Assembly (NCBI RefSeq): GCF_964355755.1
Contig: NC_092672.1
Span: 36,214,437 to 36,278,436 of the forward strand
DNA: 64,000 bases
Reading direction: 5' to 3'
From: Antedon mediterranea
Lineage: Eukaryota; Animalia; Echinodermata
The translations under genes were made by a program, and so were the position numbers. Of this stretch, positions 6,844-64,000 are shown in pieces. Within the stretch, counting starts at the first letter, position 1. Every line of letters starts with the position of its first letter. A model generated the notes under the pieces. It searched no databases and was not told where the DNA came from. It saw only the letters and a list, made by a program, of their open reading frames with translations.

Positions 6844-39251
<32,408 letters not shown>

Positions 39252-47762: not shown

Positions 47763-49889
47763 TTAATCAAAATCTTCTTTCATAAACGACTCGATATCTC
47801 GTCTAATCATATGATGCATAACGGCCTCCTGAGTGCGGTTTGCTTGTTTGGATTCAAGTATGGAATAAAAAAACGGAAAAATGCAAACAGTTGCTGCAGA
47901 TGCGAACAGGCTCTGGACAATCGACAACTTCTGAAATTGATTAACCATGATTAGAGTAGAAAAGCCAAGGTACAATGTCATTAAATAAACAAATACCTTG
48001 ATGACCCTTGACATTATTTCAACAGAGAAGGGTTTGTACCTCTGTGTAATATACTCGAAAATATCTTGCCGAATAGACAAAAAGTTATGCGAGTTGAGGA
48101 TCACGGCTGGTGGTGGGTTTAAAGTCATGCTCCGGTTAAATAAAGGAAACGATTGGCTCGTACAGATCACATGTGAATTTGAATGAACGAGATTTCGATT
48201 CGGATGATCTATATTTTGGTTTTTTTCGATACCTTTATTTTCTTTGGTAATTTTTTCCGCGGTGTTTAAAACGTTCCATAAAAGGTCTGAATACTGCTGT
48301 GTGTAACTGTTGATCATTGTTAAAATGTAAGCGAAAATTCCAATAGCATACACGTAAATCCTACTTAGCGCGCCTGCGTATATGACGATACCGGTGAACG
48401 TGTAACCAATAATTTCAATAATGTACAACAAAATCGTGATGCATTTACCCAACAAGATAACTTCTACAAAAATAAAAAGCACCCAGAGCAGCATCAGCTG
48501 TAGAGATTTTGAAATTTGCGTACTTGTTAGCCAGACGTGGAACATACGCATGAAACAATACAGAAATGGAATACAGTTCAACGCAACAATGAGTAAAAAA
48601 CCGGCACAGTACGGAACAAAACATGTTACGATAATCAATATAGACCAATGTTTTCCAAGCTTGATGGTAAAAAACCGGTAGAATAACTGAATTCCGTGGT
48701 ATCCTGATTTCCAAAGTTCAATCCTAACCAGCATCTCTGCTCGGGCCTGGAGAACATAGAGGAACCGTTTCATGCCTGAATACGAATCATTCGGAATTTT
48801 TAAAGCTTCGGGGAGATCAAACAAATCTAAAGATATTCTTGTGCGATCATGAGAATCTTCTATAAAGATTCGCTCGAACCAATCACTCTTGTGGTGTAAT
48901 GTGTACAACATGCCTACCACAAATATGGTGAAGATGGTGTTTGATATAACGTACCATACAATGCAGTGAACGGTTGTTTTTCCATTTTCCAATACTGCCT
49001 CCCATCTCAAATAAAAGTCCTCTTTATCTGTTGTAAACGCTATAGTATATGGAAGAAATTGTAGAAAAATGAATAAGAACAGGTAAAATAAACAGCGAGT
49101 TATATACACATAGTTATTTGAGTTCCCTTTAAAGAGTAGCCAATATTTCGGTCCTGTCGGTATGTCTGTTAGCAAACTTAAATACTTGATCTGTTTTCCC
49201 TGGTAGATTTTACTCTCGGGATGCGAGCGCAAGACGTATTTCAGCAATAATGGGAAATAGAACGATACTATGAAAGCGAGTAGTGTAATCGTCTTCATCC
49301 AAGGACGTGAAGATCGCGAAGATCGTGATTTAGTGAGAGAATTATCTGAATTATGGTTCCAACATTCGTAAAGCATGCTGCCTTGAAGTATGTTATAATA
49401 CGTGAACATGGTGTTCACTAAATCGTGTTTTTCCAGACAAACCTCAGAGGTGCTTAGTATCGGTTCGTCAGATGTTTCTAACAACGCTTTTGCAATAAGA
49501 GTGAGTTTTACCGCATCGTCTGCCATTCTAAAACAATCCGAATCTTGCGGAAAACTCGCATTCAGTCTAACCGTTTCCATCCTGAGGCTGAGTGTCCCCA
49601 GGGACAGCGAAGGGAAGTCAAACGGTAGACTTAGAAGGAACTTTCCCTTGCTTCCCACGACCCAAACCCAGTGATACGCATCCACGACATCAGAATCGTT
49701 CTGTAAATTAATCTTTTCGGCAAAGTTCAATTTAACTCGCATAAATGTTTTACGGTTTTCGACAGCTTGCGTCAGTCTTTCTGGTTCGTAGATCTTGATG
49801 TGGCAACTTGGAATGGGTACGTGTATTGTTGATCCAAGATGGAAGGTTACCATAGAAACCAATAACCAGGTGATACCGTTGCACAACAT
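47763..49889 (-). CDS. Uncharacterised multi-pass membrane protein with signal peptide (paralog 1), about 708 aa, single coding exon
   Basis: 723-codon ORF. The first ATG (49889) lies just after a strong acceptor ttttcccccag| at 49908. Signal peptide MLCNGITWLLVSMVTFHLG, a Cys-containing ectodomain of about 190 aa, then many hydrophobic segments. Clear motif sharing with 52681-54978. Confidence 0.88.
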   Translation of the reverse strand: MLCNGITWLLVSMVTFHLGSTIHVPIPSCHIKIYEPERLTQAVENRKTFMRVKLNFAEKINLQNDSDVVDAYHWVWVVGSKGKFLLSLPFDFPSLSLGTLSLRMETVRLNASFPQDSDCFRMADDAVKLTLIAKALLETSDEPILSTSEVCLEKHDLVNTMFTYYNILQGSMLYECWNHNSDNSLTKSRSSRSSRPWMKTITLLAFIVSFYFPLLLKYVLRSHPESKIYQGKQIKYLSLLTDIPTGPKYWLLFKGNSNNYVYITRCLFYLFLFIFLQFLPYTIAFTTDKEDFYLRWEAVLENGKTTVHCIVWYVISNTIFTIFVVGMLYTLHHKSDWFERIFIEDSHDRTRISLDLFDLPEALKIPNDSYSGMKRFLYVLQARAEMLVRIELWKSGYHGIQLFYRFFTIKLGKHWSILIIVTCFVPYCAGFLLIVALNCIPFLYCFMRMFHVWLTSTQISKSLQLMLLWVLFIFVEVILLGKCITILLYIIEIIGYTFTGIVIYAGALSRIYVYAIGIFAYILTMINSYTQQYSDLLWNVLNTAEKITKENKGIEKNQNIDHPNRNLVHSNSHVICTSQSFPLFNRSMTLNPPPAVILNSHNFLSIRQDIFEYITQRYKPFSVEIMSRVIKVFVYLMTLYLGFSTLIMVNQFQKLSIVQSLFASAATVCIFPFFYSILESKQANRTQEAVMHHMIRRDIESFMKEDFD

Positions 49890-50921
49890 TGTGTTTATTG
49901 TTGTAAACCTGGGGGAAAAATAGAAATATTTCAAGTGTTATTGTAGCTTTGGAAGGCCGGCCCAGGTCCCCACGCTAAATGTATAAACATTATAGAGAGG
50001 GCATCACAGTTCAGCACTTCTGTTTACTTTTTTTACTTTCAAAATCATGGATCCTTCATTTCTTAATGTTTGAATGTTTGTATATGAGTGACTCACTCCT
50101 TTGTTGAGTTCTGAGGTTGACCCCTTAAAGGGGGTCCTACTTTGTATTTGTAAATTGTACAATGAATATATAATACTGTTAAGTAGATCTTAAACTACTT
50201 GTCATGTTTAAGTAACTGTTTACAGCTATAATATATAAGTATATACTATATAATAATAAGTACTGTATTAAATTTTGTCCTAAAGTAAAAACTGAAACTT
50301 TAAAAAAAAGAATAATATTGTGATCATATACAGTATCACAAGGTCACGTGTTCTAATATATATGTCATATTATAATTATTATTTGAAACCTTACCTGGAT
50401 AGTTTTTTTGTTACCTTGCGGTAGTTAGCTCTCTGGATAGCTAGCTACAGACAGACACAAAGCGTGGTAGTTGGTGTATTACTGTTTTTTTAATTTAGTG
50501 GAGTTGGATCTCTCTGGTACAAAGAGCTCATTCAGGAAGTTTGGATTTCCTTCCTGAAGAATAAAAGAAAAATATTTTGCTCAGTTATTGTTTTCATTTT
50601 AAGATTCTCAACACATGTTTGTAGGGTAAGAAACAAACTTTTTTATTTTTAATCCATCTAACTTTGCTGTCATTTTTAACCCCAGATTCATACTCACTGA
50701 GATTTTATTATTTAATTTATGCCTCCGTCAAAAGCATTTGCTTGATTTATGTTTGTAGACTTATGTCTTTTTAAAAATAGAAATAGTCATCTGCTATGAA
50801 TGCAATGTTCTATTATGTGTCTCTAATTACAGTATATTCTAACATATGTAACTTGATACTCATTTCCTCGCTGGTATGACCAGGCTAACTATGGAACTAT
50901 AATATAATATTATATATTATA

Positions 50922-51446: not shown

Positions 51447-52680
51447 AATCATGGGCTAACTAACTACCTTACACCAGCAGTCCTCTTGAATTTATCACAG
51501 AGATAAAAACACAAACATTTATATAAAGTGATGACATATCTGTTTGTGACTGTGTAGTGTATAGTAGTGAACTTCCTATTTATGTTTTTATGTATATGGC
51601 TCATACAGCATCCATCATGCTCAAACAAAGGAAAATGTTCTCATTTCTCTAAAATACCATGTGCTTTTCTTTGTATTTACCTATTTTTTCTATGATATTT
51701 AGAAACAATTCATACTATACCTTATATAAGCACTACTGTGAATCAACATTCTTCTGTCTGCTGTACAAATGTGTAAACTGATGTGGACTAAAAAACAGAA
51801 CCATCCTCATTGGATGGAAACAATACTCCACTCTACCACCAGTCTACTTAGTTGTCATGGCAACAATCACTTTGACCTCAATGTGTACCTTGTACATCCT
51901 TACACCAATTAAAAGTACCATATGTTTTGGAATAATGTAGTATAAAAGATAAGGGCCATTATTAAACCACCTTAGTTGTTGAGGTGATCCCTGTCGAAAA
52001 CTTTAATTTGACAAGACTATCCCTAAGACTTCCTCAAATGGGATAGGCCAAATTAGATCATACACCTCATAATAACATTCCCATAGTCTGTATATTATTC
52101 ATTCATGCAAGAAGCACACAAAGTAAATTGGTGACTTTATTTATCTGTAGGTAGAAAGTTGATGTTGCTACAAGCTTAGGTAGAAGGTTATTGAATGATC
52201 TCCAATCACAGTTAAACAGTTTACAAACTTGGATGTCATGGTTGTAAGTCTGTTTACAGTCATCCCGTACTTAATACATTTAAAGCGCATATAAGTTAAC
52301 TTTGTTTGACTTTTTGGTAAGTGTATTCATTTTTTAAATATTCATAGGTTCAGACATAACCAGGCCAGTTGCTGGCTGTGAAGATTTGCAGTAGAAAAAC
52401 TGGGCTTTTCCCTTAGTACTCTCGCCACTGAATGTAAGAAGAATGAATGAAGCCAGGATTAATTTTATGGGATAATTTCATGGGATACTCCATGGATAAT
52501 TACATGGGATAATTAGGCCTACATAGGATATATTATATAATACTAGTATGTGCATGGAGGTATATACCTCCATGGTATGTGTAACTGGAAAGTTTTATTG
52601 AATGCTAGATACAAATAGTACTTCCACGAGGTTAAAAAAAAAATTATTGAGGTTTTTCTTTCAGTCTTTACGCATTGATC

Positions 52681-54978
52681 ATGACACGCTCTAGGAGAAT
52701 CTTACTTCTTGTGGCAGCCATGTGTATTGTGACGTCATCCAGAGACATCTCTGCAAGGATCCAATCCGATAACACTACCTGTCTACTGGAGATGGATGGC
52801 ACAGATGTCTTGCAAGAACTCTTGGAAGGTGATGCTGTTTTTATCAACATAAAATTGTTATCTTTTGTTGATGCTTCTGATTCTGTTGGAATGGATTTTT
52901 ACGAAAATACAACAGTGATTGACGTCAACCACTGGGTTGTGGCTGTCGGGAAAATCGGTGAACTCCTTTCGACATTTCCTTTTGATTTTGAATACCTGTC
53001 ACTTGGAACTCTAACTCCTGGTGTGGAACACATCTCCTTAAACGTCACATCAATACCCGAGTGTTTCTTTGATGTTGACAACGAGGACAAATTAAACATT
53101 ATTGCAAAATCTTTGCTACAACTCGAAAGCGATGAAAATGTGAAACAAGACGTTTGCATTGAGCGGCAGCTAACACGCGATAATTTCAGCGTATCAGGTG
53201 TTTACGGAGTGCCTGCCTGTTATTACACTCTTCTTCAGGGCAGTACATACTTTGAATGCTGGCAAATATCAGGAGAAGATAGTTCAGTGGAACTTAGTAA
53301 TTTCGTGACGCATTTCTGGCTGGACACCTTTTTCTGGATTAGTGTAGTATTCACTTTTTATTTTAACTTGTTCTTCGTCTCCTTTTTTTGTCGTGTGAAA
53401 CCAATGGTTGATAACGAAAAACAATACTTGAGCATACGAACTGATCTACCAATGGGTTTTAAGTATTTGATGTTTTATAAGGGAAATCAATATACTTTTG
53501 TTTTTGTTTCACGTTGGCTTGTACTATTGGTTCTTGTCGCTTTCTTACAATACATACCTTACATCATTGCACATGTCTCTGACAGCGATAATTTCACACG
53601 TCGTTGGGCAGCGATTTTTAACAATGAAGTGATTCAAGAGAGTACATTTTGGGGTTGGAATATTTATGTAAATTTGGTGTATTTTATTTTTGGGGTTATT
53701 CTGATGATAACCTGGTTGAACTGTCAAAACTGGTTTGAAACTAAGTACATTGAGTCAATAATGCGAGATCATTTTTTTCTGGAAGAGTTCAATCTCGCGC
53801 CAGATTTGAAAATTCCAAAAGATAATTACAGTGGCCTGTATAGATTTTTATTTGTCGTGAAGGAGAGGACAAAGATGGCCGTATCGATTTCTCATTGGAA
53901 GCACGGGTTGAAGGGGTTTTGGAAGTCTTTGTCGTTCATAAACAACAAGGTACTACAGTATACCGTGGCAGCAATTCTCGTTGTACCGTTCCTATGTATC
54001 TACACCATTGGCACTGCAGTTAATTCTATCCCGTTGTTTTATTGCATGTTACGTTTCTTCCAAATATGGGTGATTGATGACAATATGAAACTTAGCAATC
54101 GTGTTTTGATGATTTCAGCTTCTTTTGGTCTCTTATTCGTCGAGATTGCTCTGTTGGGAAAATTTGTATCTATCTTTGCATATGTCTCCGGTATTGTATG
54201 TTACTTCTGCATCGGTTTACTGGTGAACTCCGGTACTGCCGGCGTCTTTGTTGCTGTCTCTGTCATCGTGATTGGTTACGTCATTTCGACGTTAACAGAT
54301 TATTACAAAGGATATGTGGTTCTTTTACAGCAAGTGATATCGGTGCTAGATGAGTTAATCACAGATAACATGGTTCAAGTTTCTAGTGATAAACTTCCAT
54401 CTTTTCCACAATGTACAGATCAGATAAATAATACCTGCATTCCTCTTTCTACTGTTGTTGACTTTCAAGCTGGTGGGAATGCTGGTACGTCAACTGGACC
54501 TTCAACTGGACATTCAACTGGACCTTCAACTGACCCTAACACACAACCTACTAGTACCCCTACTCCTTCAAATGGAACTCCTGCACCAGCACCATCAAGT
54601 GATAGCACATCTTTACCAGTAATCAGACAAGACACCGAAGGCTTAACTGCTATTGAAAAGACTCTCTTTGACTTGATTGTTCAGAAGTATAGACCAACAG
54701 GGATTCAAATCTTGACTGTCATCATGCAACTCCTGATTCTGAGTCTAGTAATCTGGGTTGGTTTCTCTACTCTAAAGCTTATTGAAGATTTCACTGACTT
54801 AAACCAGCAAGTAGAACTATTTGCAGGAGTTGTCATTGCTGGTATTGTACCTCTTTTTCAGGAAATTCTACGAAATAAGGCGGAAGAAGAGAGCAGACAA
54901 AAGATTCGTGAAAAATGTATCCGGCGCGACATTGAAGAATATCTGGCTAATGGAACATTTCAAACTTTGGTTATCTAA
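52681..54978 (+). CDS. Uncharacterised multi-pass membrane protein with signal peptide (paralog 2), about 765 aa, single coding exon
   Basis: 767-codon ORF. The ATG at 52681 follows acceptor tttttctttcag| at 52664. Signal peptide RILLLVAAMCIVTSS, multiple NxS/T sequons, many TM segments, and a Ser/Thr/Pro-rich loop insert. AATAAA signals at about 55379 and 55502. Confidence 0.9.
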   Translation: MTRSRRILLLVAAMCIVTSSRDISARIQSDNTTCLLEMDGTDVLQELLEGDAVFINIKLLSFVDASDSVGMDFYENTTVIDVNHWVVAVGKIGELLSTFPFDFEYLSLGTLTPGVEHISLNVTSIPECFFDVDNEDKLNIIAKSLLQLESDENVKQDVCIERQLTRDNFSVSGVYGVPACYYTLLQGSTYFECWQISGEDSSVELSNFVTHFWLDTFFWISVVFTFYFNLFFVSFFCRVKPMVDNEKQYLSIRTDLPMGFKYLMFYKGNQYTFVFVSRWLVLLVLVAFLQYIPYIIAHVSDSDNFTRRWAAIFNNEVIQESTFWGWNIYVNLVYFIFGVILMITWLNCQNWFETKYIESIMRDHFFLEEFNLAPDLKIPKDNYSGLYRFLFVVKERTKMAVSISHWKHGLKGFWKSLSFINNKVLQYTVAAILVVPFLCIYTIGTAVNSIPLFYCMLRFFQIWVIDDNMKLSNRVLMISASFGLLFVEIALLGKFVSIFAYVSGIVCYFCIGLLVNSGTAGVFVAVSVIVIGYVISTLTDYYKGYVVLLQQVISVLDELITDNMVQVSSDKLPSFPQCTDQINNTCIPLSTVVDFQAGGNAGTSTGPSTGHSTGPSTDPNTQPTSTPTPSNGTPAPAPSSDSTSLPVIRQDTEGLTAIEKTLFDLIVQKYRPTGIQILTVIMQLLILSLVIWVGFSTLKLIEDFTDLNQQVELFAGVVIAGIVPLFQEILRNKAEEESRQKIREKCIRRDIEEYLANGTFQTLVI

Positions 54979-55270: not shown

Positions 55271-57154
55271 TATAAAAATAACCTGCTGTTTTTTTTTAAT
55301 TCTCTATTATGCTTGCAAATGTAAATTTTCCTTGTTGCTTACAGCAGTTTTAATTTTGAAATCTTGATTTGGGTTTAGAATAAATTTAGTCCAGACTTAA
55401 TATACAGTATTTGTACAAACATTTTTATATATATAATGAGGAAACTCATCTTTTTAAAGTTAAAGAATAGATTCATTTTTGTATTTTGTGAACTGATAAT
55501 CAATAAATGTTTTTGTTTTAAAAAATGAAATGCTGCAACTAATCTAATGTTATTCAGGTCATATTTATATATGTTTATCTTATAAGGTGTACAACCCTTG
55601 TAACCATATTATTGCTTAACTGTCTCAGCTAAAATAGACTGCTGCTTAATATGGATAGATAAAACACAAACATTTGAATTATAAACATTTATTTATTTTG
55701 ATACACCTTGCAGCATACAATAAATTTGTAACAAAACAATAATTGTAAGCATAAAAAATGGCACAAAAAACCAGCATTATAGAAACTGTGAAAAACACTA
55801 AGAATTCAATATACATTTTTTATTTGATTTTATACATAAAAAGTATTACATACCATACCATATATATGTAAAGACGATTGTTAGATATTTATATAATAGA
55901 TATAAGTGACCTAGAAGCTAGGGGCATAAATTAGTCTTTACCGATTCACCACGATAAGCGCTTAAAGCGCTCAAAAGGTTAAAAGTCAAGGTCATTGTAA
56001 ACAAATTACTGTATCAACAACAAAAAAGTAAATCGAATTTACATGCGCAGTTTGCTGTGCATGAATCGTAACAACAAATTATACAAAATATTCACAACTT
56101 TTTTTAAAAAAATATGCTTCTAAATATATAAAAACAATTGTTGAAGTTAGTTTGAAAATAAAATTCGAAAATATAACCGTTTTTCGAAGCACGCTGTTCG
56201 AAACGCGACAGGCGCGTTGAATGAATCTAGGCCTAGGCCTAAACATACAACGTAAAATCGTCTAAAATCCATCTTTATTTCTAATAATCACTATTTTGAA
56301 GCTTGTATACAATAAATGTATAATAAATAAAGATTATGTATCAGTTACAGTGTCTAAATCGTCATATTTCCATGTAAAAATGTGATTTTTCTACCGGAGA
56401 AAAGTCGTGAAGATGTCCTCACAAGGGCCGCGCCATATTGTTTACCTTTGATTGTAATATGAACCCTGACATGTCAGATGCATTATGGGCATGAAATATT
56501 TGTTCAAACTTCAGCTGCGCAAAGGTCAGTTTATTGAAGCATAACTTTTGACAAACATTTTGATACCAAACTTGTTTTAATTTCATAAGTTTTCGACGCA
56601 TTTTCGTCAAATTTTCTGCAAGCTACACGTCTAAAACAGCGGACTAAGCTCCCGAGGGATGCCGGTGCGCGTGAGAATCGCGAATTCCAAGTCGCTTTCG
56701 GGATGTTTTTTTTAACATTCCCGGTGAACAAACAGCGGCGACGACGCTCTCGGGGCGGCTCCCGATAGGCCTAGGCCCCATATGGTCATCGTCGGATGAG
56801 TCAGTCTACTAATTTCTTCATAATTTCGAAACCGGTCATTCATAATGGTCAAGTTTGGTCTTATTTTGAAGAGAAGAAATAGGTTCTGATGAAGAGATGA
56901 GTTTTATTATGAAATATTTATTAATTTTTGTGCATTTGGTAGTCAAAGATAAATTACAAATTTTTTATAATTTTCCTAAAATATTTATAAAATTTGCATA
57001 ATCCATACTCCGCCAAAATAAGTTGTAACACAAATTTGATAACATATTTGGAAATAAAATGTCCTTTATTGAGTGAATTTTCTCCAACTCAAAAACATTG
57101 TAATAAATAGTTGATCTGAGAAATAATACTATATGTCCGAGAAATACTGTATTA

Positions 57155-57275
57155 AGCTCTGTCTACACTATCAAACTTTATGTGACAACAAAATGTGATG
57201 TGCCCATATGGACATGATGATGTCATATCACTACCATATTTGGTTTTTGTCAATCTAGTTTGTGTAAACAGAGCT
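57155..57275. mobile_element. Harbinger-like MITE, family A
   Basis: TTA-agctctgtctacactatcaaac ... gtgtaaacagagct-TTA, with matching TSD. Confidence 0.78.
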
Positions 57276-57289
57276 TTAGCAACATAATA

Positions 57290-59892
57290 GGGAGGTTTCG
57301 CAACCTTACGAATACGATAACGAAAACGGATACGTCACACATTTGTGAAACTTTTGAGCAAAGATTATATAGCGCCGCTACGCGGCGCAAGATAGGTAAC
57401 TGTTGCCAAGCTCCTATCTTATAACACTACGCGCCCAGTAAATCCATGGACGCCATTCGGGCGGACAGCGATTTTTTTTTCCGTACGAGAGTTCCTCCAT
57501 CGGTTCGTTTCGGACTCAATCGACTCTTCGGTAAGCCACCGATGCTCACTGATGCGTGACAGCAACCACAAGACAAAACGTGAGCAGCTTTTTTGCACGA
57601 GTGACAGATTTATATATACTAGAGGCCTAACACTAATACTCACTGTAAATATAATAATAAATATTAATAGTAGTACATACTGAACGTCATTGTAATAATA
57701 ATAATAGGCCTAGAATTTTAATAATATAATACTGTATAGGCAGCCACAAACCAATGTATGTACCATCAGATTCACAAACAGTAACACACACACAGCAGCA
57801 GCACTTTGTTGGTCGTCACAAGCAAGTGCAAGGCTGGCCCTAGCTAGCCTAGCCCTACGTACGTGTGCTTCAATGTAGTACATTTCCATCTACAGACAGT
57901 ACTATTTTTTATTTTAATAAAATGAAGTAGTAGGTTAGAAATTATATGTACAGAAGTAACACTAACAGATGTTTTTATCAAGAAAATTACAATTTTCTTC
58001 AGGTTTTTAAGTGTAACATTTGAAAAATTGTATACATATATTATATTATTATTATAGGCCTAGTATTAGTATTCTATTAGTATTAGTAACATGTATTCTT
58101 GTAAGTTGTAATGTATAGAAACACATGCTTGCTTATAAAGCGTTTAATCTTGGCCGGTGGAAATTTTGAAATAAAATGAACAATTTAAAAAAAAAATTTA
58201 TTTCAGAAACCATAATAAAAAAAATAAATCAAGAATATGGAATACAGAAAACCCATCTTCATGACAAGATGATAGTATCACATATAATTATAAGCTTCCT
58301 GGAAAATGTGTTACAGTATTATTAAATGTATTTGTACTATTGCAGTCGTGTCAGTACCGTAATTGAATGTTTTTTACTTTGCATGTATTTTTTATGATTT
58401 TCCAAATTACATATACACATAATAAACAATAATATTAGTTGTAGGCCTATAATATAACTTAATTAAAACTCCAAAATTGCCTATATTAAAAGTCTGAAAT
58501 CTTTATTTTTCCAGATTGGGGATAATTAATACGTACACCTTTAACGTAAAATTTCCATTACCTTACAATACAAATATTAATTTAATAATATTATTTTAAA
58601 AGGTATAAAAAACATACACTGTGCATAGGAATTCCTACTGTACATAACCATTTTAAATTCAAAAGTAATACCTTGCATAGGCTTACACAAGGTTGGCTAT
58701 GTTGGCTAGGCTAGCCATGGGCTAGCTACAATACCATAAACGATAAGAAAAGAGCCTCTCGTTCGTGACAAAAGGTCGTTCAACTTTAAAAAATAATATC
58801 TGATACGACCTACTATTGGGTCGTAGACCTAAATATCTTCAATATGCTATTGGGTTCTTAATGTAATTACTAAGTAGGCCTAGTATTTATTAATTAATGT
58901 CATCAAAACTCGTATTAGTGTAGATTCATTTTACTATTATGAGAGCCTGTGTGAAAGTATTAGCTCGCGGTTTGTAAATGTAAATTGTATTATATTGTCA
59001 CGCATCAGTGAGCTGACTTTACCGAATACCGAAGAGAGTCGATTGAGTCCGAAACGAACCGATGGAGGAACTCTCGTACGGAAAAAAAAATCGCCGCCGG
59101 ACAGGTTATTATTGTGATTTAAATGTAAATGGTTTAAAGTTTGCGGTCCGCCTCGAAGTATCTGTGGTTAACCATCTTTATGATTAATTCTTGGAAAAGG
59201 GAAGAAATTATGGAAACAAAGTAAAATAAAAGTTTCTTTGGGATCTGGACACTTTCCGATTAATTCTGTGTGTTTACATTGATATGTTTGGTTAGACAAC
59301 TTCGTTCTTTAACCGAAACATCGTGGATATTGCCTTGACAACGACTTTATTCCGGTTCAAACTTGTCCGCCGGAATGGCGTCCATGGATTACAAAGGTCT
59401 CACCCAGTTACCTATCTTGCGCCGCGTAGCGGCGCTATACAATCTTTGCTTTTGAGCTGATGCCCATTTCATATTCATAAAGCGTATTCGTGTTGACGAA
59501 TATCACCAGTCATATTCGTAACTACAAAACGAGTATAGTTTTTGATCTATTTTGCACATTTTGCATTTGAATCAGGAATGATTCATGATTATAATATAAT
59601 TATAGATTTATTGAAAGTAATTTACTAAAGTAATTTACTAAAATGCCAGGTAAATTTTGATATAAATAGCAGTTTTTAAAGTCCTCACTCGCTTTATGTT
59701 ACGCTAGGCCTAGACAGCAAAGCACCACGCACACGTACCTGCTGCACTTCGCTCAAATTTATCGCAGTCATATTTTGGATGGCGCCCTTAATATTTCGTT
59801 GCCATGCGATTTTTACTGGCTTACGAAAAACGAATAATTGTGCGTGACGTATCCGTTTTCGTTATCGTATTCTTAAGATTGCGAAACCTCCC
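57290..59892. mobile_element. Non-autonomous DNA transposon with about 50-bp TIRs (outer host element)
   Basis: gggaggtttcgcaaccttacgaatacgataacgaaaacggatacgtcac ... gtgacgtatccgttttcgttatcgtattcttaagattgcgaaacctccc. Flanked by TA, or by AT if the termini are one base longer. Confidence 0.8.
57357..59450. mobile_element. Nested non-autonomous DNA transposon with long segmented TIRs and 4-bp TSD (TTTG)
   Basis: agcaaagattatatagcgccgctacgcggcgcaagataggtaactg / cagttacctatcttgcgccgcgtagcggcgctatacaatctttgct. TTTG occurs on both sides (57353-57356, 59451-59454). Further inverted blocks: 57440-57467 vs 59364-59390 and 57468-57561 vs 58996-59094. Confidence 0.82.
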
Positions 59893-60898
59893 TATATAAT
59901 TATTATTATTATGGACATAAAAATCCTTTCTATAGAGGGCGGTAGATAACATTTTGTTGCAATGAAAGAATTATTCCCTGGGTAATACTAATACACAGTA
60001 TAATACAGTAAAATATAATTATAATTACAATATAAATAATTAATTCAAATTATCATAATAGATCTATACTAACCCGTGCTTATGTTTTAAAATAATTGCA
60101 CATGATTATATTTGCTGCTGTAATACTTATTACATCAAAATAAAATGCAATACGTTCGAGCCTTGAGCAGACCACATTATGAGCCTTCTTGAATTGAGTC
60201 TTGTACGTACATGTTCCCTCTATACTAGCATGGATTAAACCCCTTCTTGATAGGGTAATTGGTATGCATTCGTTAACTGTATGTTTGTATCTTTCTTGGC
60301 ACTCTTATGTACCTTTCTTCCATCTAAGCCCCAATGTGGCATATTTTTGTCCATAGAGTAGCCTAGTAAACGACAGCACATGGTTTTACTTCATCAGTTA
60401 TGCGAATACGCCAGAAAGGGCTAAAATAGCGATTAAAACTACGGCGAGGACGAAGATGCCGGACAGGACAATACATATTACTTTGTTTCTCTATACGGAT
60501 ATAAAATAATATAAAAGTTAGACAATTACGAGCTTCACGCATTATGTGAATGCCCATTTACTGGACACATACGCCAAACTTGTAATATACATTGCCATAG
60601 CCTTGTGGTTTTATTCTCTATTGAACCTTTATTACTGTCAAAATTTGTTTTCGAAGTTCTTAAAGTTAGTGAAAATATTATCATTGCTATTTTCATACTT
60701 GTACCGTACTATTTGTGTGCCATGTTGGACACTGTTATCACCAGTTGTCACATATAGAATAATAATAATAATATTTTAATATTAGTTAATGGGAACAATT
60801 CTCCCCCTTAATAATATAATGAAAAACCGTCCCCCCCCCCACCCCATGCAATTCAGTTGGTTTGATTATCGTGCTCTTATTCATCAATACATACCTAA

Positions 60899-61127
60899 AG
60901 CTCTGTCTACACTATCAGACTAGTGTGTGTACCCAATTAATATGGTAGTGATATGCCCAAATATGGTAGTGATATGACATCATCATGTCCATATAAAGAA
61001 GAAGCACATAAACTTGACACATTTCACAGACAGCAACTTCGCAAAATCATAGGTATCAGGTTGCCAGACAGGATGATATCGGACATAAATTTACAGAAGG
61101 ACAGGAACAAAACCAATTTCGTTAGAA
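60899..61127 (+). mobile_element. Truncated family A MITE (60899 to about 60994) fused to an RTE-type LINE fragment (about 60995-61127)
   Basis: Left MITE TIR, then KLDTFHRQQLRKIIGIR.PD and, frameshifted, IYRRTGTKPISLE, typical of the LINE RT C-terminal region. The similarity stops abruptly at 61127. Confidence 0.65.
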
Positions 61128-64000
61128 CACGCTGTCTTCAACTATAGGCGATACAGACAAAAAGTACTGTACTATAGAGGGCGCATTCTCATAACCTTTA
61201 TTCAGCTTGCGTGATCAGTAGAGCGTGACCAGCGAGTTTTGCGATTACGCCGTCGATTTGTTTATATTATTAGACGTACTAGATTGTATATATTAGAAAA
61301 CTGATATTATATATAACGTAATTCTTTGAATAAATTTGTACTTTTATGTATTATAAACAGCATATTAAAACTAAAAATAAAGAAAAAGTTCGTTTTGGTG
61401 CAATTTGTATTGTATATCGCCTTTTGTTTCGAATAAACAAATTATATGAACAGCGCCACCTAGAATAATGGGGCGCTAAATACGATCGTCTGTTTTACGT
61501 GACAGCCACCAGTTCATGTTCCGAATTTTTGCAGACCGACTCATTCCATCTTTATCAACAACATATGTTAAAACAACAATTTTGTTATGGTTAAAATCGT
61601 AGAAATTGACTGCTAAACTTGCTCAATATTTTCAAGCTAGCCTAGGCTAATGCTGCATGCTGAGATGGTATTTGTATGTTAATGTATTGTAAATATTTTG
61701 TAAAAAGGTATGGATGTTCATATTTCTTGTATGACAGGTCTCTGTCGTTTATGTGGTTGTAGATTTAAAAAAAATGATACAAAAACAAATATTCTGAACT
61801 TAAGATCTGACATTCTTCCATATTACAATCTGATTGAATCTGTACAAAATGTTCACCCCAACTTTATTTGTGCTACTTGTACATCAAAATGTTACAAATT
61901 CAAGCCGATAACAACATACAAATGGACAAGTCATAAACAATCATCATGTTTGACATGCTTTTTATTTACAAATCAGTACATTCACGGATCTATGAAGAAA
62001 CATAATCAGCGATCACGAAATCTTAATGGTACATTTTGTAAGCCTGACAATTCATCACCTTCATTAAACAGTCAATTTGAAGTAAAAAACAGTGCTATTG
62101 ATGATATTTATGTCTGTAAAGTATGTAATGATGTTATGTCTTTGTCTATGTTAGAGACTAAATGTTGCCATACTTTTTGTGCAAATTGTTTGTCCCAACT
62201 GTTTTGTACACTAAAAGCAGATGTAATTCCTTGTCTTCAATGTTTGTCTCCTGTTTGCATTGTTGATGTGAAATCGCCATCGAAACTAAGCCAGCAATCA
62301 TTGAGCTGAGATGCCAAAAGTGCTCGGACACACTTTTGTATCCAGAATGTCAAGATCATACTTGCATATCAAACTGCCAACTAAAGGTTAAAAAAATTAA
62401 AAAAGCAGTAAATGAGATCAACGAATCAATCAATGAAGTGATACCTAATCAACTTGAAAAATTAGCTCATAAAGTAATTCACAAGTCTCTGAAGAAAAAC
62501 AAGGAAATTACTTTAAACACAAATGGCAGGGTAAGTCAATTACAATTTTAAAATAAAAAAATACTGAAATATTAATCAAACTAAATTATAATGTTAATTG
62601 AAATTTTATAAGCAAATTGTATTACTTTTAACCAGCCATTGAAAGTTACTGTTATTCCTAATGCAACAAAGTCAAGCAATGATGTGAGTCAACGAACTGT
62701 AAAGCGAAGAACATCAGAGGTTCAGCGACTGAGGAAAGCAGTATCTGTAGGTGGGGAATTAAGACAGTTATCCGATGAAGTGAGTCACCTTCCTTCCAAA
62801 CCTCCAAATCAAGATGTAGATGATAGCTTGGCGATGAAAGTTGACTGTGGTCTTGGTTGGCAACAAATTAGAAAGCTAAGAAGGTAAATAAAACAACTTT
62901 GATTAGATAATATGATAATATAAGCATCACCAACATGTTTATTTAAATTGGCAAGTATCTCCGTTATTTAAAATGTACTGTTTTTACAAATTCTATTAGG
63001 TATTTTTTACCTGGGTTTATATCGTCAGAAAGACAAATGCAAGGTCGACAAGAAGAATTAACTCTTGATTTTATCGATGAAAAGATGATTCCCCTGGTTT
63101 TTAAATGTGATGGTGCAAATGGTAAAGATGGGTTTTTAGAGAAGATGGCTCCTGTAGTAGTAGTGAAAAATATCCATGACTTTTTATTTACACACCTGGA
63201 AAAACATGAAGAGTAAGTATTTTTTGGTAATCTAATCAGTCGCAAGTGTAACAATATTTTGTGTTGATTTATAAGGACAGTTAAACATAATATTTTGTAT
63301 ATACTTTTGTTTCTAGATTGCACAACATCAAACCAAAGGATGGGGAGATCCTGATCAAATTTGGTGGCGATAAAGGTGGCGGGTCCACAAAATTTGAGTT
63401 ACAAATTTGCAGCATTGACAAACCCAACGCCTTGCACAACATCCTTGTCGTGCTGATGTTTAATGCACCAGACTACACCACTAATTTATCTAGAACACTC
63501 CCACTCATCAGCAAACAAATCACAGATTTGAATGGACAAGAGTGGAGGTAGGATTAAATATATCTTAATATAATTTACAAAACATCATAATTACCTGAGT
63601 CATACATGAAATCTGCAATTAACATGTGTTTGTTCTATTTGTTTTTTAGAGGTTATAAACTGCGGGTCTTCTTTTTTGGAGATTATGATTTTCTAGTCCG
63701 AATATATGGGCTATATTCACCTAATGGTAAGAATAGAATTATAGATTAATTAGAAAATATGTTATGATTAATATATATTGTATGTATTGATATCACTGGA
63801 TGTATTCCTATTCCAGGAAGATACTGTTGTTTGTTTTGCACATCAACAAAAGATGACATAAACAAGGGAATTAAAAGGGAACCGAGATGTCTACAGAATA
63901 TGTCTGAAGATTATGCCAAATTTATTGACTCTGGGTCAAAAGAGGACAAAAGTAAGGATGTTTCTAGAAACATTGTACGGGCGCCAATGGTTAATGTAGA
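61128..64000 (+). mobile_element. Chapaev-type (CMC superfamily) DNA transposon, left part; continues beyond the window
   Basis: Begins with CAC exactly where a LINE remnant is cut, and contains a spliced transposase gene starting 582 bp inside. The right TIR and TSD are not in the window. Confidence 0.72.
61710..64000 (+). pseudogene. Chapaev-type DDE transposase with RAG1-like N-terminus; one frameshift; 3'-incomplete
   Basis: Exons 61710-62530 (frameshift at about 62280-62305), 62636-62883, 63000-63212, 63317-63547, 63650-63726 and 63817 to the edge, joined by phase-compatible GT-AG introns. Motifs: H-X7-CRLCG...HPNFICATC...W..H...CLTC (Chapa); C3HC4 RING CKVC..CCHTFCANC..CLQC; CQKC...HTC; NGRPL; KFGGDKGGGSTKF; FFGDYDFLVRIYGL..PNGRYCCLFC. 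Confidence 0.85.

What the first reader, a model, noticed from the sequence alone, without database searches (positions are those of the whole stretch)
61710..64000. Spliced transposase with RAG1-like domain order on a Chapaev-type catalytic core
Seen: six exons separated by five short (90-116 bp) GT-AG introns join into one protein. Its order is H-X7-CRxCG/HxxxxCxxC/W/CxxC zinc module, C3HC4 RING, SPSKL...IELRCQKC...HTC zinc finger, NGRP (split across an intron), basic helix QRTVKRR, KFGGDKGG, then FGDYDFL..YGL...RYCCLFC. Known: RAG1 has the same order (CND, RING, ZnA, GGRPR nonamer-binding motif, D600, D708 followed by CxxC), and Chapaev transposases and Aplysia N-RAG-TP share the RAG1 N-terminal region. 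Inference: the GGDKGG and GDY catalytic contexts point to Chapaev rather than RAG1L/Transib (RAG1 has DGMG and GYDEK). This copy is relevant to where RAG1's N-terminal domains came from. The ORF track shows it only as fragments.
Basis: partly seen in the sequence, partly recalled or inferred. Interest (0 to 1): 0.85.

Follow-up and report, generated by a model that had tools for sequence, protein, structure and literature searches.

The report
Young RING-bearing Chapaev transposon, antisense-spliced
This is one copy, broken by a small deletion, of a recently mobile jumping gene of the known Chapaev family, whose enzyme carries the same front-end zinc domains as the antibody-gene recombinase RAG1 (a likeness long in print), and whose family makes a spliced RNA running against the gene that likely helps silence it.

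Summary
In detail: six exons, five GT-AG introns (105, 116, 104, 102, 90 nt), all listed motifs, and one frameshift. Reads from four runs show 10 more bases there, so the family ORF is open and only this copy or assembly is broken. The element starts at CAC 61128, inside a LINE-like fragment, and runs off the window. It is a RING-bearing Chapaev transposon. Exon 4 hits DUF1280 (Chapaev). Whole relatives have CAC..GTG ends, 4-bp target duplications at 4 of 7 sites (none 5-bp) and one gene. A full-length relative folds like the RAG1 core (Z about 25) at only 11-14% identity, no closer than to Transib. Extras: a spliced antisense RNA spans most exons in one run; three relative families carry a shared box 10-11 bp deeper at one end (12/23-like); this element's left end resembles a 23-RSS, weakly. 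The scan has already reported Chapaev elements, an antisense RNA and uneven ends on other DNA. The right end, target duplication, catalytic Glu and a tree with RAG1 could not be checked.

The parts
60996..61127 (+). LINE-like ORF fragment that received the insertion (label from recalled motif likeness; no Pfam hit)
   Evidence: Reads of 4 of 4 runs match up to 61127 and then go on with other letters that continue the same reading frame (table 7, read by eye); Pfam blank for 60941-61126
61128..61165 (+). Left (5') terminus/TIR, starting CAC; 7-mer + 22 nt + A-rich 9-mer matching the RSS nonamer at 7 of 9
   Evidence: Empty-site loose ends at 61127; an X1 contig with a different 134-nt flank joins at 61128; positions 10-20 match the left TIR of relative L008 at 10 of 11; RSS likeness occurs at 29 of 1533 CAC sites of the window
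61710..62530 (+). Exon 1: Chapa/NZD double zinc finger (aa 4-83, type I ligand pattern), C3HC4 RING (aa 136-178), C2H2 ZnA, NGR
   Evidence: weak RING hits; RAG1_imp_bd E 0.084; RAG1 N-terminal clusters, score 0.93; by-eye comparison with supplement 5 of PMC4411706
62300..62301 (+). 10-nt deletion in this copy or assembly; shifts the frame, stop at codon 200 just after the RING
   Evidence: Insertion at full depth in X8, X2, X7, X11 and 10 gaps in X1, X10; with 10 N put in, 594 codons without a stop
62636..62883 (+). Exon 2: NBD-like basic helix region
   Evidence: the matching region of relative P0100 aligns to RAG1 from residue 390 (rmsd 11.5 with this part included)
63000..63212 (+). Exon 3: DDBD/pre-RNase H-like region (inferred from the relative's model)
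63317..63547 (+). Exon 4: first catalytic Asp (GGDKGG), DUF1280/Chapaev
   Evidence: Pfam PF06918 E 1.8e-13, 51 bits against cutoff 25; 330 relatives at E<=0.001
63650..63726 (+). Exon 5: second catalytic Asp (GDY), 69 residues after the first
   Evidence: the family profile aligns this D with the RAG1 GYDEK Asp
63817..64000 (+). Exon 6 (cut by the window end): CxxC of ZnB
   Evidence: P0002 continues about 160 aa further, with the LH motif
62175..63720 (-). Spliced antisense RNA: exons 63720-63595, 63195-63011, 62875-62626, 62380-62175, plus an upstream exon from beyond the window
   Evidence: X8 contig with three CT..AC joints, depth 49.6; canonical donors and acceptors on the minus strand, no long ORF, 702 of 767 nt overlap sense exons

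Best explanation
This is the left 2.9 kb of a recently mobile, RING-bearing Chapaev DNA transposon whose single spliced gene encodes a transposase predicted to cut and paste the element with a RAG1/Transib-type DDE core and no RAG2 partner; this copy is frameshifted and would move only with enzyme from intact sister copies. Steps. (1) Shown: CAC left end at 61128, insertion into a repeat fragment, at least one other insertion site, an open family ORF in reads, the domain order, and Chapaev profile membership. (2) Shown in relatives only: CAC..GTG ends, 4-bp TSD, one gene in 4.4-5.3 kb, third catalytic Glu after HxxxxH, RAG1-like fold. (3) Inferred from the shared fold and from known RAG/Transib chemistry (recalled): a transposase dimer binds both ends through NBD/DDBD-like domains, nicks, leaves hairpins on the donor flanks, and inserts the ends 4 bp apart. 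(4) Inferred: the RING acts as a ubiquitin ligase, as RAG1's does, and the spliced antisense RNA, starting near the right end, dampens the transposase as a small-RNA source or by interference.
For: DUF1280 hit = Chapaev. Chapa motif pattern like Chapaev-1/2_NV and _BF, followed by RING and C2H2. Spliced protein against full-length P0100: 27% over 642 columns, E 7e-66. P0100 model (pLDDT 80.8) against RAG1: Z 25.4, rmsd 3.7, 452 aligned, 14% identity; BbRAG1L Z 23.5; HzTransib Z 22.1; RAG1 RING-ZnA 1RMD Z 10.4, 109 of 116 aligned. Relatives: 4-bp TSD at 4 of 7 distinct two-ended sites, 3-bp at 1, none at 2, 5-bp at 0. Published Chapaev hallmarks are 3-4-bp TSD, CAC/GTG ends, DDE, and C(2)C, LH, H(4)H motifs. 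Youth: the X1 contig differs at 3 of 2873 letters but has another flank. Antisense joints: rough chance 2e-7; not listed in X2, X7 or X11.
Against: Right TIR, TSD and catalytic Glu of this element lie outside the window and were not seen. Fold and TSD evidence come from relatives about 25-40% identical, not from this element. No sense-spliced RNA joint was listed in the one RNA-like run. No named Repbase Chapaev core sequence was available for direct alignment. D-to-E spacing in relatives is 314-380, longer than the 220-290 I recall from Repbase (recalled, not seen). The antisense RNA rests on one run whose RNA status is a guess by the tool, and its silencing role is untested.
Confidence: 0.9

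Rival explanations
1. It is a RAG-like (RAG1L/TransibVDJ) transposon, the RING-bearing direct ancestor of RAG1, with RAG2L downstream of the window.
For: Domain order matches RAG1; the N-terminus is nearest to vertebrate RAG1 clusters in the Atlas (0.93); the S-P to ZnA-Cys distance is 17 residues, as in human RAG1; the left end has a 7/9 nonamer match at a 22-nt spacer; a convergent transcript exists.
Against: The core of a relative is 11-14% identical to RAG1 and BbRAG1L, against more than 30% for TransibSU/RAG1L. The family profile reaches RAG1 only at E 0.0017 and BbRAG1L at 0.23. TSDs in relatives are 4 bp, while RAGL TSDs are 5 bp. Six whole relatives have no minus-strand stop-free stretch over 142 aa. 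The antisense RNA has no ORF in the part seen.
Confidence: 0.03
2. It is a domesticated host gene derived from a Chapaev transposase rather than a mobile element.
For: Multi-exon gene with conserved intron positions; low apparent copy number; a database gene model exists (P0002).
Against: A sharp CAC terminus inserted into a repeat fragment, with the empty site in reads; a second flank; an internally deleted derivative in other runs; this copy is frameshifted. The same introns sit inside TIR-bounded relatives.
Confidence: 0.04
3. The window's copy is itself intact and autonomous, and the 10-nt deletion is an assembly error.
For: No laid contig shows the deleted form, including X1 and X2, the best holders, which may be the window's own sample.
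Against: Contigs collapse near-identical copies and drop rare variants. The deletion lies between short direct repeats (3 nt), as real deletions often do. X2's contig reaches only 30 nt into this flank, too little to phase.
Confidence: 0.25
4. The antisense spliced RNA is read-through from a host promoter next to one insertion, using cryptic splice sites, with no role in the element's biology.
For: No ORF; one run only; its far end (29 nt) lies on nothing in the window; AT-rich DNA offers many cryptic splice sites.
Against: Its depth (49.6) exceeds the unspliced pieces (5-7.4) in the same run. Its upstream exon still lies inside the element.
Confidence: 0.4

Closest known systems
RING-bearing Chapaev transposons (Chapaev-1/2_BF, -1/2_NV, -4/6/7_HM; Kapitonov and Koonin 2015, PMC4411706; Pfam DUF1280 PF06918; CMC/CMCT clade)
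   Same: Chapa domain with the type I ligand pattern (one N-terminal His, then His and two Cys), then RING, then C2H2; DUF1280 core; CAC terminus; 4-bp TSD and one gene in relatives.
   Different: A new family in another host. Lacks the KGGRP that follows the Chapa domain in BF/NV families and in several relatives. A spliced antisense RNA and uneven end boxes were not found in print for Chapaev (searches; listings only).
Vertebrate RAG1
   Same: NZD-RING-ZnA-NBD-like-RNase H-ZnB order; D2 followed 19 residues later by CxxC; same fold in a relative (Z 25).
   Different: 11-14% core identity; lacks the vertebrate insertion (helix H2) in the NZD; relatives carry a coiled-coil insertion of about 110 residues after the LH motif; no RAG2; 4-bp rather than 5-bp TSD in relatives.
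RAG-like transposons (ProtoRAG/BbRAG1L, TransibSU, RAGL families)
   Same: CAC termini, Chapa/NZD domain, DDE fold (Z 23.5 to 6B40 for the relative), transcription converging from the right end.
   Different: No RAG2L in whole relatives; 14% identity instead of over 30%; TSD 4 bp in relatives; the convergent RNA here is non-coding and overlaps the transposase exons.
Transib transposons (HzTransib)
   Same: Single gene, RAG-type core (Z 22.1 for the relative), CAC ends; some families have 12-like 5' and 23-like 3' ends (PMC1131882), the polarity seen in three relative families here.
   Different: Transib has no Chapa or RING domain and makes 5-bp TSDs.
Chapaev3 (Merrow, Garfield, Conan; PMC4079192)
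   Same: Chapa domain, CAC ends, C(2)C, LH and H(4)H motifs.
   Different: About 2 kb, 480-560 aa, no RING, 3-bp TWA TSD, one or two exons.

Membership tests
Chapaev (RING-bearing) | Chapa zinc-finger domain at the N-terminus | tested here: met
   Motifs at aa 4-83; ligands conserved in alignment A3; pattern matches supplement 5 of PMC4411706 by eye; model aligns to ZAD domains at Z 4.4-5.0, weak; 6 of 26 relatives hit RAG1_imp_bd
Chapaev (RING-bearing) | RING and C2H2 after the Chapa domain | tested here: met
   RING pattern at aa 136; Pfam RING hits below cutoff (E 0.003-0.03); PDB RING hits E 0.004; relative's model matches 1RMD, Z 10.4
Chapaev (RING-bearing) | Core matches the Chapaev profile (DUF1280) | tested here: met
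   E 1.8e-13, above cutoff; 25 of 26 aligned relatives hit it; identity of DUF1280 from PMC3985635
Chapaev (RING-bearing) | DDE triad with C(2)C, LH and H(4)H motifs | tested here: inconclusive
   D, D and CxxC are in the window; LH is in P0002; a PKLH..H motif is read by eye in a loose end; the Glu is seen only in relatives (14 of 16 tested)
Chapaev (RING-bearing) | TIRs with 5'-CAC and GTG-3' | tested here: inconclusive
   Left end CAC at 61128 is shown; right end is outside the window; both ends are present in relatives
Chapaev (RING-bearing) | 3-4-bp target site duplication | not testable with these tools
   Needs this element's right flank; no genome is held. In relatives: 4 bp at 4 of 7 sites, 3 bp at 1, none at 2
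RAG-like transposon (RAG1L-RAG2L) | Core more than 30% identical to RAG1 over about 600 aa | tested here: not met
   11-14% in structure-based alignments of relative P0100; family profile reaches RAG1 only at E 0.0017; criterion from PMC4411706. Tested on a relative and on the family profile.
RAG-like transposon (RAG1L-RAG2L) | Convergent RAG2L gene inside the element | tested here: inconclusive
   Downstream DNA of this element is not held; six whole relatives (4.4-5.3 kb) leave no room and have no minus-strand open stretch over 142 aa
RAG-like transposon (RAG1L-RAG2L) | 5-bp TSD | not testable with these tools
   0 of 7 sites in relatives; this element's right flank not seen
Transib | No Chapa or RING domain; core only | tested here: not met
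   Chapa, RING and C2H2 are present; definition from PMC4411706
Chapaev3 | No RING, about 2-kb element, TWA TSD | tested here: not met
   RING is present; the element exceeds 2.87 kb within the window alone; features

The most novel reading that the evidence does not exclude
RING-bearing Chapaev elements keep the pre-RAG2 state of the RAG lineage: a single transposase with the full RAG1 domain order acts on two unequal ends spaced like 12- and 23-RSS, and a promoter at the right end drives a convergent spliced RNA in the slot that RAG2L fills in RAG transposons. This young family with an open ORF would then be a live enzyme on which a 12/23 rule without RAG2 can be tested; its left end would be the 23-type end and its unseen right end a 12-type end.
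Probability: 0.2. Interest if true: 0.7.

Novelty: new member of a known kind. Interest (0 to 1): 0.33.

Why it matters
The domain order itself is known. What this locus adds is a young family with an open reading frame. A 2026 preprint notes that Chapa-domain function in Chapaev systems has no experimental validation, and an intact RING-bearing family is a natural substrate for such a test. If the uneven end boxes seen in three relative families are functional, the 12/23 asymmetry of V(D)J recombination would reach back to the common ancestor of Chapaev, Transib and RAG. The spliced antisense RNA gives a handle on how such elements are kept at low copy number.

Tried and rejected
No whole genome is held, so the right end could not be read. 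A 23-nt left-end pattern found 0 matches in metagenome contigs; in the window only the one site matches at up to 3 mismatches, so no non-autonomous copy was on hand to show a TSD. Viral contigs: 27 pattern matches, none confirmed. An attempt to fetch RAG1/RAG1L sequences with the N-terminus of P0100 returned only P0100, so no tree with RAG1, RAG1L or Transib was built. A within-family tree (35 rows, quick method, careful search unfinished) puts the window core with P0004, a brittle-star protein (SH-aLRT 96), and says nothing about RAG1. Foldseek of the window's own N-terminal model gave no match at E<=0.001; the wide search gave only Z<=5.5 (RINGs, ZADs); the RAG1 NZD structure was not listed. 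No listed holder is on record as RNA, and no sense-spliced joint was listed: no evidence either way on sense expression. The 144-aa minus-strand ORF at 62964-63398 has no Pfam hit and crosses the antisense intron, so it was rejected as a gene. Rfam was blank for 58000-64000. The sigma-70 promoter scan does not apply to an animal. The RSS23 likeness of the left end is post hoc: 29 of 1533 CAC sites do as well, and relatives score 2-6 of 9, so it is a lead only. Contig depth (59.8 on the element against about 15 on nearby allelic contigs in X1) hints at a few copies but is not a copy number. Literature searches for Chapaev with asymmetric TIRs (0 papers), with RSS and spacer (1) and with antisense (15 held, 14 listed, listings only) showed no description of these features; the library lacks Repbase Reports and most subscription journals.

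Full report
Observation. The window is AT-rich animal-type DNA; no genome is held. Five introns with GT donors, pyrimidine-rich AG acceptors and stops in all frames lie at 62531-62635, 62884-62999, 63213-63316, 63548-63649 and 63727-63816. The joined exons read open for 199 codons in one frame and for the last 405 in another. In four relative loci the best-scoring intron sits at the same codon and phase for intron 5 (4 of 4), intron 4 (3 of 4) and introns 1 and 2 (1 of 4 each); for intron 3 only the donor agreed (2 of 4). A database gene model, P0002, is identical to exons 4-6 in the part compared, uses introns 4 and 5, and runs about 160 aa past the window.

The frameshift. All 4 runs laid carry 10 extra bases behind 62300 at full depth, and X1 and X10 show the same gap. 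With ten N at that place the spliced frame has 594 codons and no stop. The distance from the S-P motif to the first ZnA cysteine is then 17 residues, as in human RAG1 in supplement 5 of PMC4411706. So the family ORF is open. The window's copy would stop at codon 200, unless the deletion is an assembly error, which contigs cannot exclude.

Boundaries and age. Reads match the window up to 61127 and then continue with other letters in 4 of 4 runs. Read by eye, these letters extend the upstream LINE-like frame (label recalled; Pfam blank). A 3190-nt X1 contig joins the window at 61128 from a different flank and differs at 3 letters over 2873. The element therefore starts at CAC 61128 and has at least one other insertion site. 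In X7 and X11, DNA breaks off after 62354 into letters that also follow 63724 in X8 and that read as a PKLH..H motif, which points to an internally deleted derivative (read by eye). An 86%-identical sister sequence is present in X1 and X2.

Family. Exon 4 hits DUF1280 at E 1.8e-13, which PMC3985635 equates with Chapaev transposases (passages). A search with exon 4 found 330 relatives. Several are full length (950-1030 aa) with Chapa, RING and DDE motifs; the best full-length one is P0100, a crinoid protein, 27% identical over 642 columns. Of 16 relatives tested, 14 gave all three catalytic motifs: D-D spacing is 69 in 13 of them and D-E is 314-380. The window's N-terminus is nearest to RAG1 N-terminal clusters in the Atlas (0.93). 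Its ligand pattern is the type I Chapa pattern shared with RAG1 (bioRxiv 10.64898/2026.01.24.700457: abstract, introduction, passages and section 9 read; its supplements were not seen). Kapitonov and Koonin 2015 state that two Chapaev subgroups have Chapa followed by RING (passages) and align seven such families with RAG1 (supplement 5).

Distance from RAG1. A profile of 26 relatives reaches RAG1 only at E 0.0017, aligning the second Asp, CxxC, LH, the two histidines and the Glu. The P0100 model matches the RAG1 core at Z 25.4, rmsd 3.7, 452 residues and 14% identity, BbRAG1L at Z 23.5, HzTransib at Z 22.1 and the RAG1 RING-ZnA at Z 10.4. RAG1L cores are more than 30% identical to RAG1. The fold was tested on a relative, not on the window's own spliced protein; the window's N-terminal model gave only weak RING and ZAD matches.

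Whole relatives. Of 42 loci fetched, 10 show both ends, at 7 distinct sites. The ends are CAC..GTG; the duplication is 4 bp at 4 sites, 3 bp at 1, absent at 2 (both contigs under 6 kb) and 5 bp at none. This fits the published Chapaev hallmarks (PMC4079192, passages) and not the 5-bp TSD of Transib and RAGL (PMC1131882, PMC7204232, passages). Six elements of 4.4-5.3 kb have no minus-strand open stretch over 142 aa. The window's left end matches the L008 left TIR at 10 of 11 positions from 10 to 20.

Antisense RNA. One contig of run X8 (RNA status is the tool's guess) skips 62381-62625, 62876-63010 and 63196-63594. Each gap is CT..AC on the plus strand, with good donors and acceptors on the minus strand; rough chance 2e-7. 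These joints are not listed for the other three runs. The contig's depth is 49.6 against 5-7.4 for unspliced pieces. A second contig adds an upstream exon from beyond the window, joined at an acceptor at 63721. The RNA has no long ORF (87 aa stop-free at most), and 702 of its 767 nt in the window overlap sense exons. Its far end lies on nothing in the window. A silencing role is inferred, and read-through from a host promoter remains possible.

Uneven ends. Two earlier notes (e1-9121108, e1-9572750) suggested 12/23-like ends, so I tested this. In 3 of 3 relative families with both ends, the longest shared internal word lies 10-11 bp deeper at the right end (positions 20/30, 19/30, 17/28); shuffles reached this in 9, 55 and 0 of 2000. 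Three of five further right ends have the box at 30. These families are kin, so they are not independent cases. The polarity matches Transib families with 12-like 5' and 23-like 3' ends. The window's left end has a similar word at 29, the long position, and a 7/9 RSS nonamer match at a 22-nt spacer; 29 of 1533 CAC sites in the window do as well. Without the right end this cannot be tested for this element.

Mechanism. Most likely cut-and-paste by a single transposase with RAG/Transib chemistry (inferred from the fold; chemistry recalled), a 4-bp staggered insertion (shown in relatives), no RAG2, and a RING that may act as a ubiquitin ligase (inferred). This copy would depend on intact sisters.

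Verdict. A new member of a known kind, interest 0.33. Also read in passages: PMC12730594, PMC3014272, PMC8355894, PMC4455052. [quoted passage not shown]

Noticed in passing
window 47763-49937 (-) and 52651-54978 (+): Two long single-exon ORFs (724 and 775 aa) for multi-pass membrane proteins, 28% identical to each other (E 2e-96), divergently oriented, with no Pfam hit at E<=0.1.
   Followed up: partly
window 36132-36482 (+), 35783-36085 (+): Exons of a P-type ATPase, SERCA-like by recalled motifs (DPPR, VITGDNK); a host gene in the window.
   Followed up: no
window 60895-60995 and many other sites (for example 1669-1925, 57134-57341): A very abundant short inverted-repeat (MITE-like) family with 21-nt internal repeats; summed contig depth over a million in X1.
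   Followed up: no
window 57468-57527 and 59035-59094: Perfect 60-nt inverted repeat 1.5 kb apart, probably the ends of another non-autonomous element.
   Followed up: no
window 62354 (runs X7, X11): An internally deleted derivative joins 62354 to the 3' part of the transposase; X7 depth is about twice as high left of this point.
   Followed up: partly
window 62547-62996 (runs X1, X2): A sister sequence about 86% identical on contigs of 3658 and 4128 nt, probably a second Chapaev family in the same organism.
   Followed up: no
L008:8265-12736, L019:1059-5479, L013:7226-12093: Relative elements with a shared box 10-11 bp deeper at the right end than at the left, giving roughly 12- and 23-nt spacers after the first 7 bases.
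   Followed up: yes
P0100 residues about 634-749: A long coiled-coil insertion after the LH motif in this Chapaev group, which does not match RAG1 in the profile alignment.
   Followed up: no
window 27860-28450 (+): 196-aa ORF that looks like the C-terminal part of a LINE reverse-transcriptase protein (recalled likeness; no Pfam hit).
   Followed up: no
L015:1731-1789: The intron matching the window's intron 1 is a GC-AG intron in this relative.
   Followed up: no
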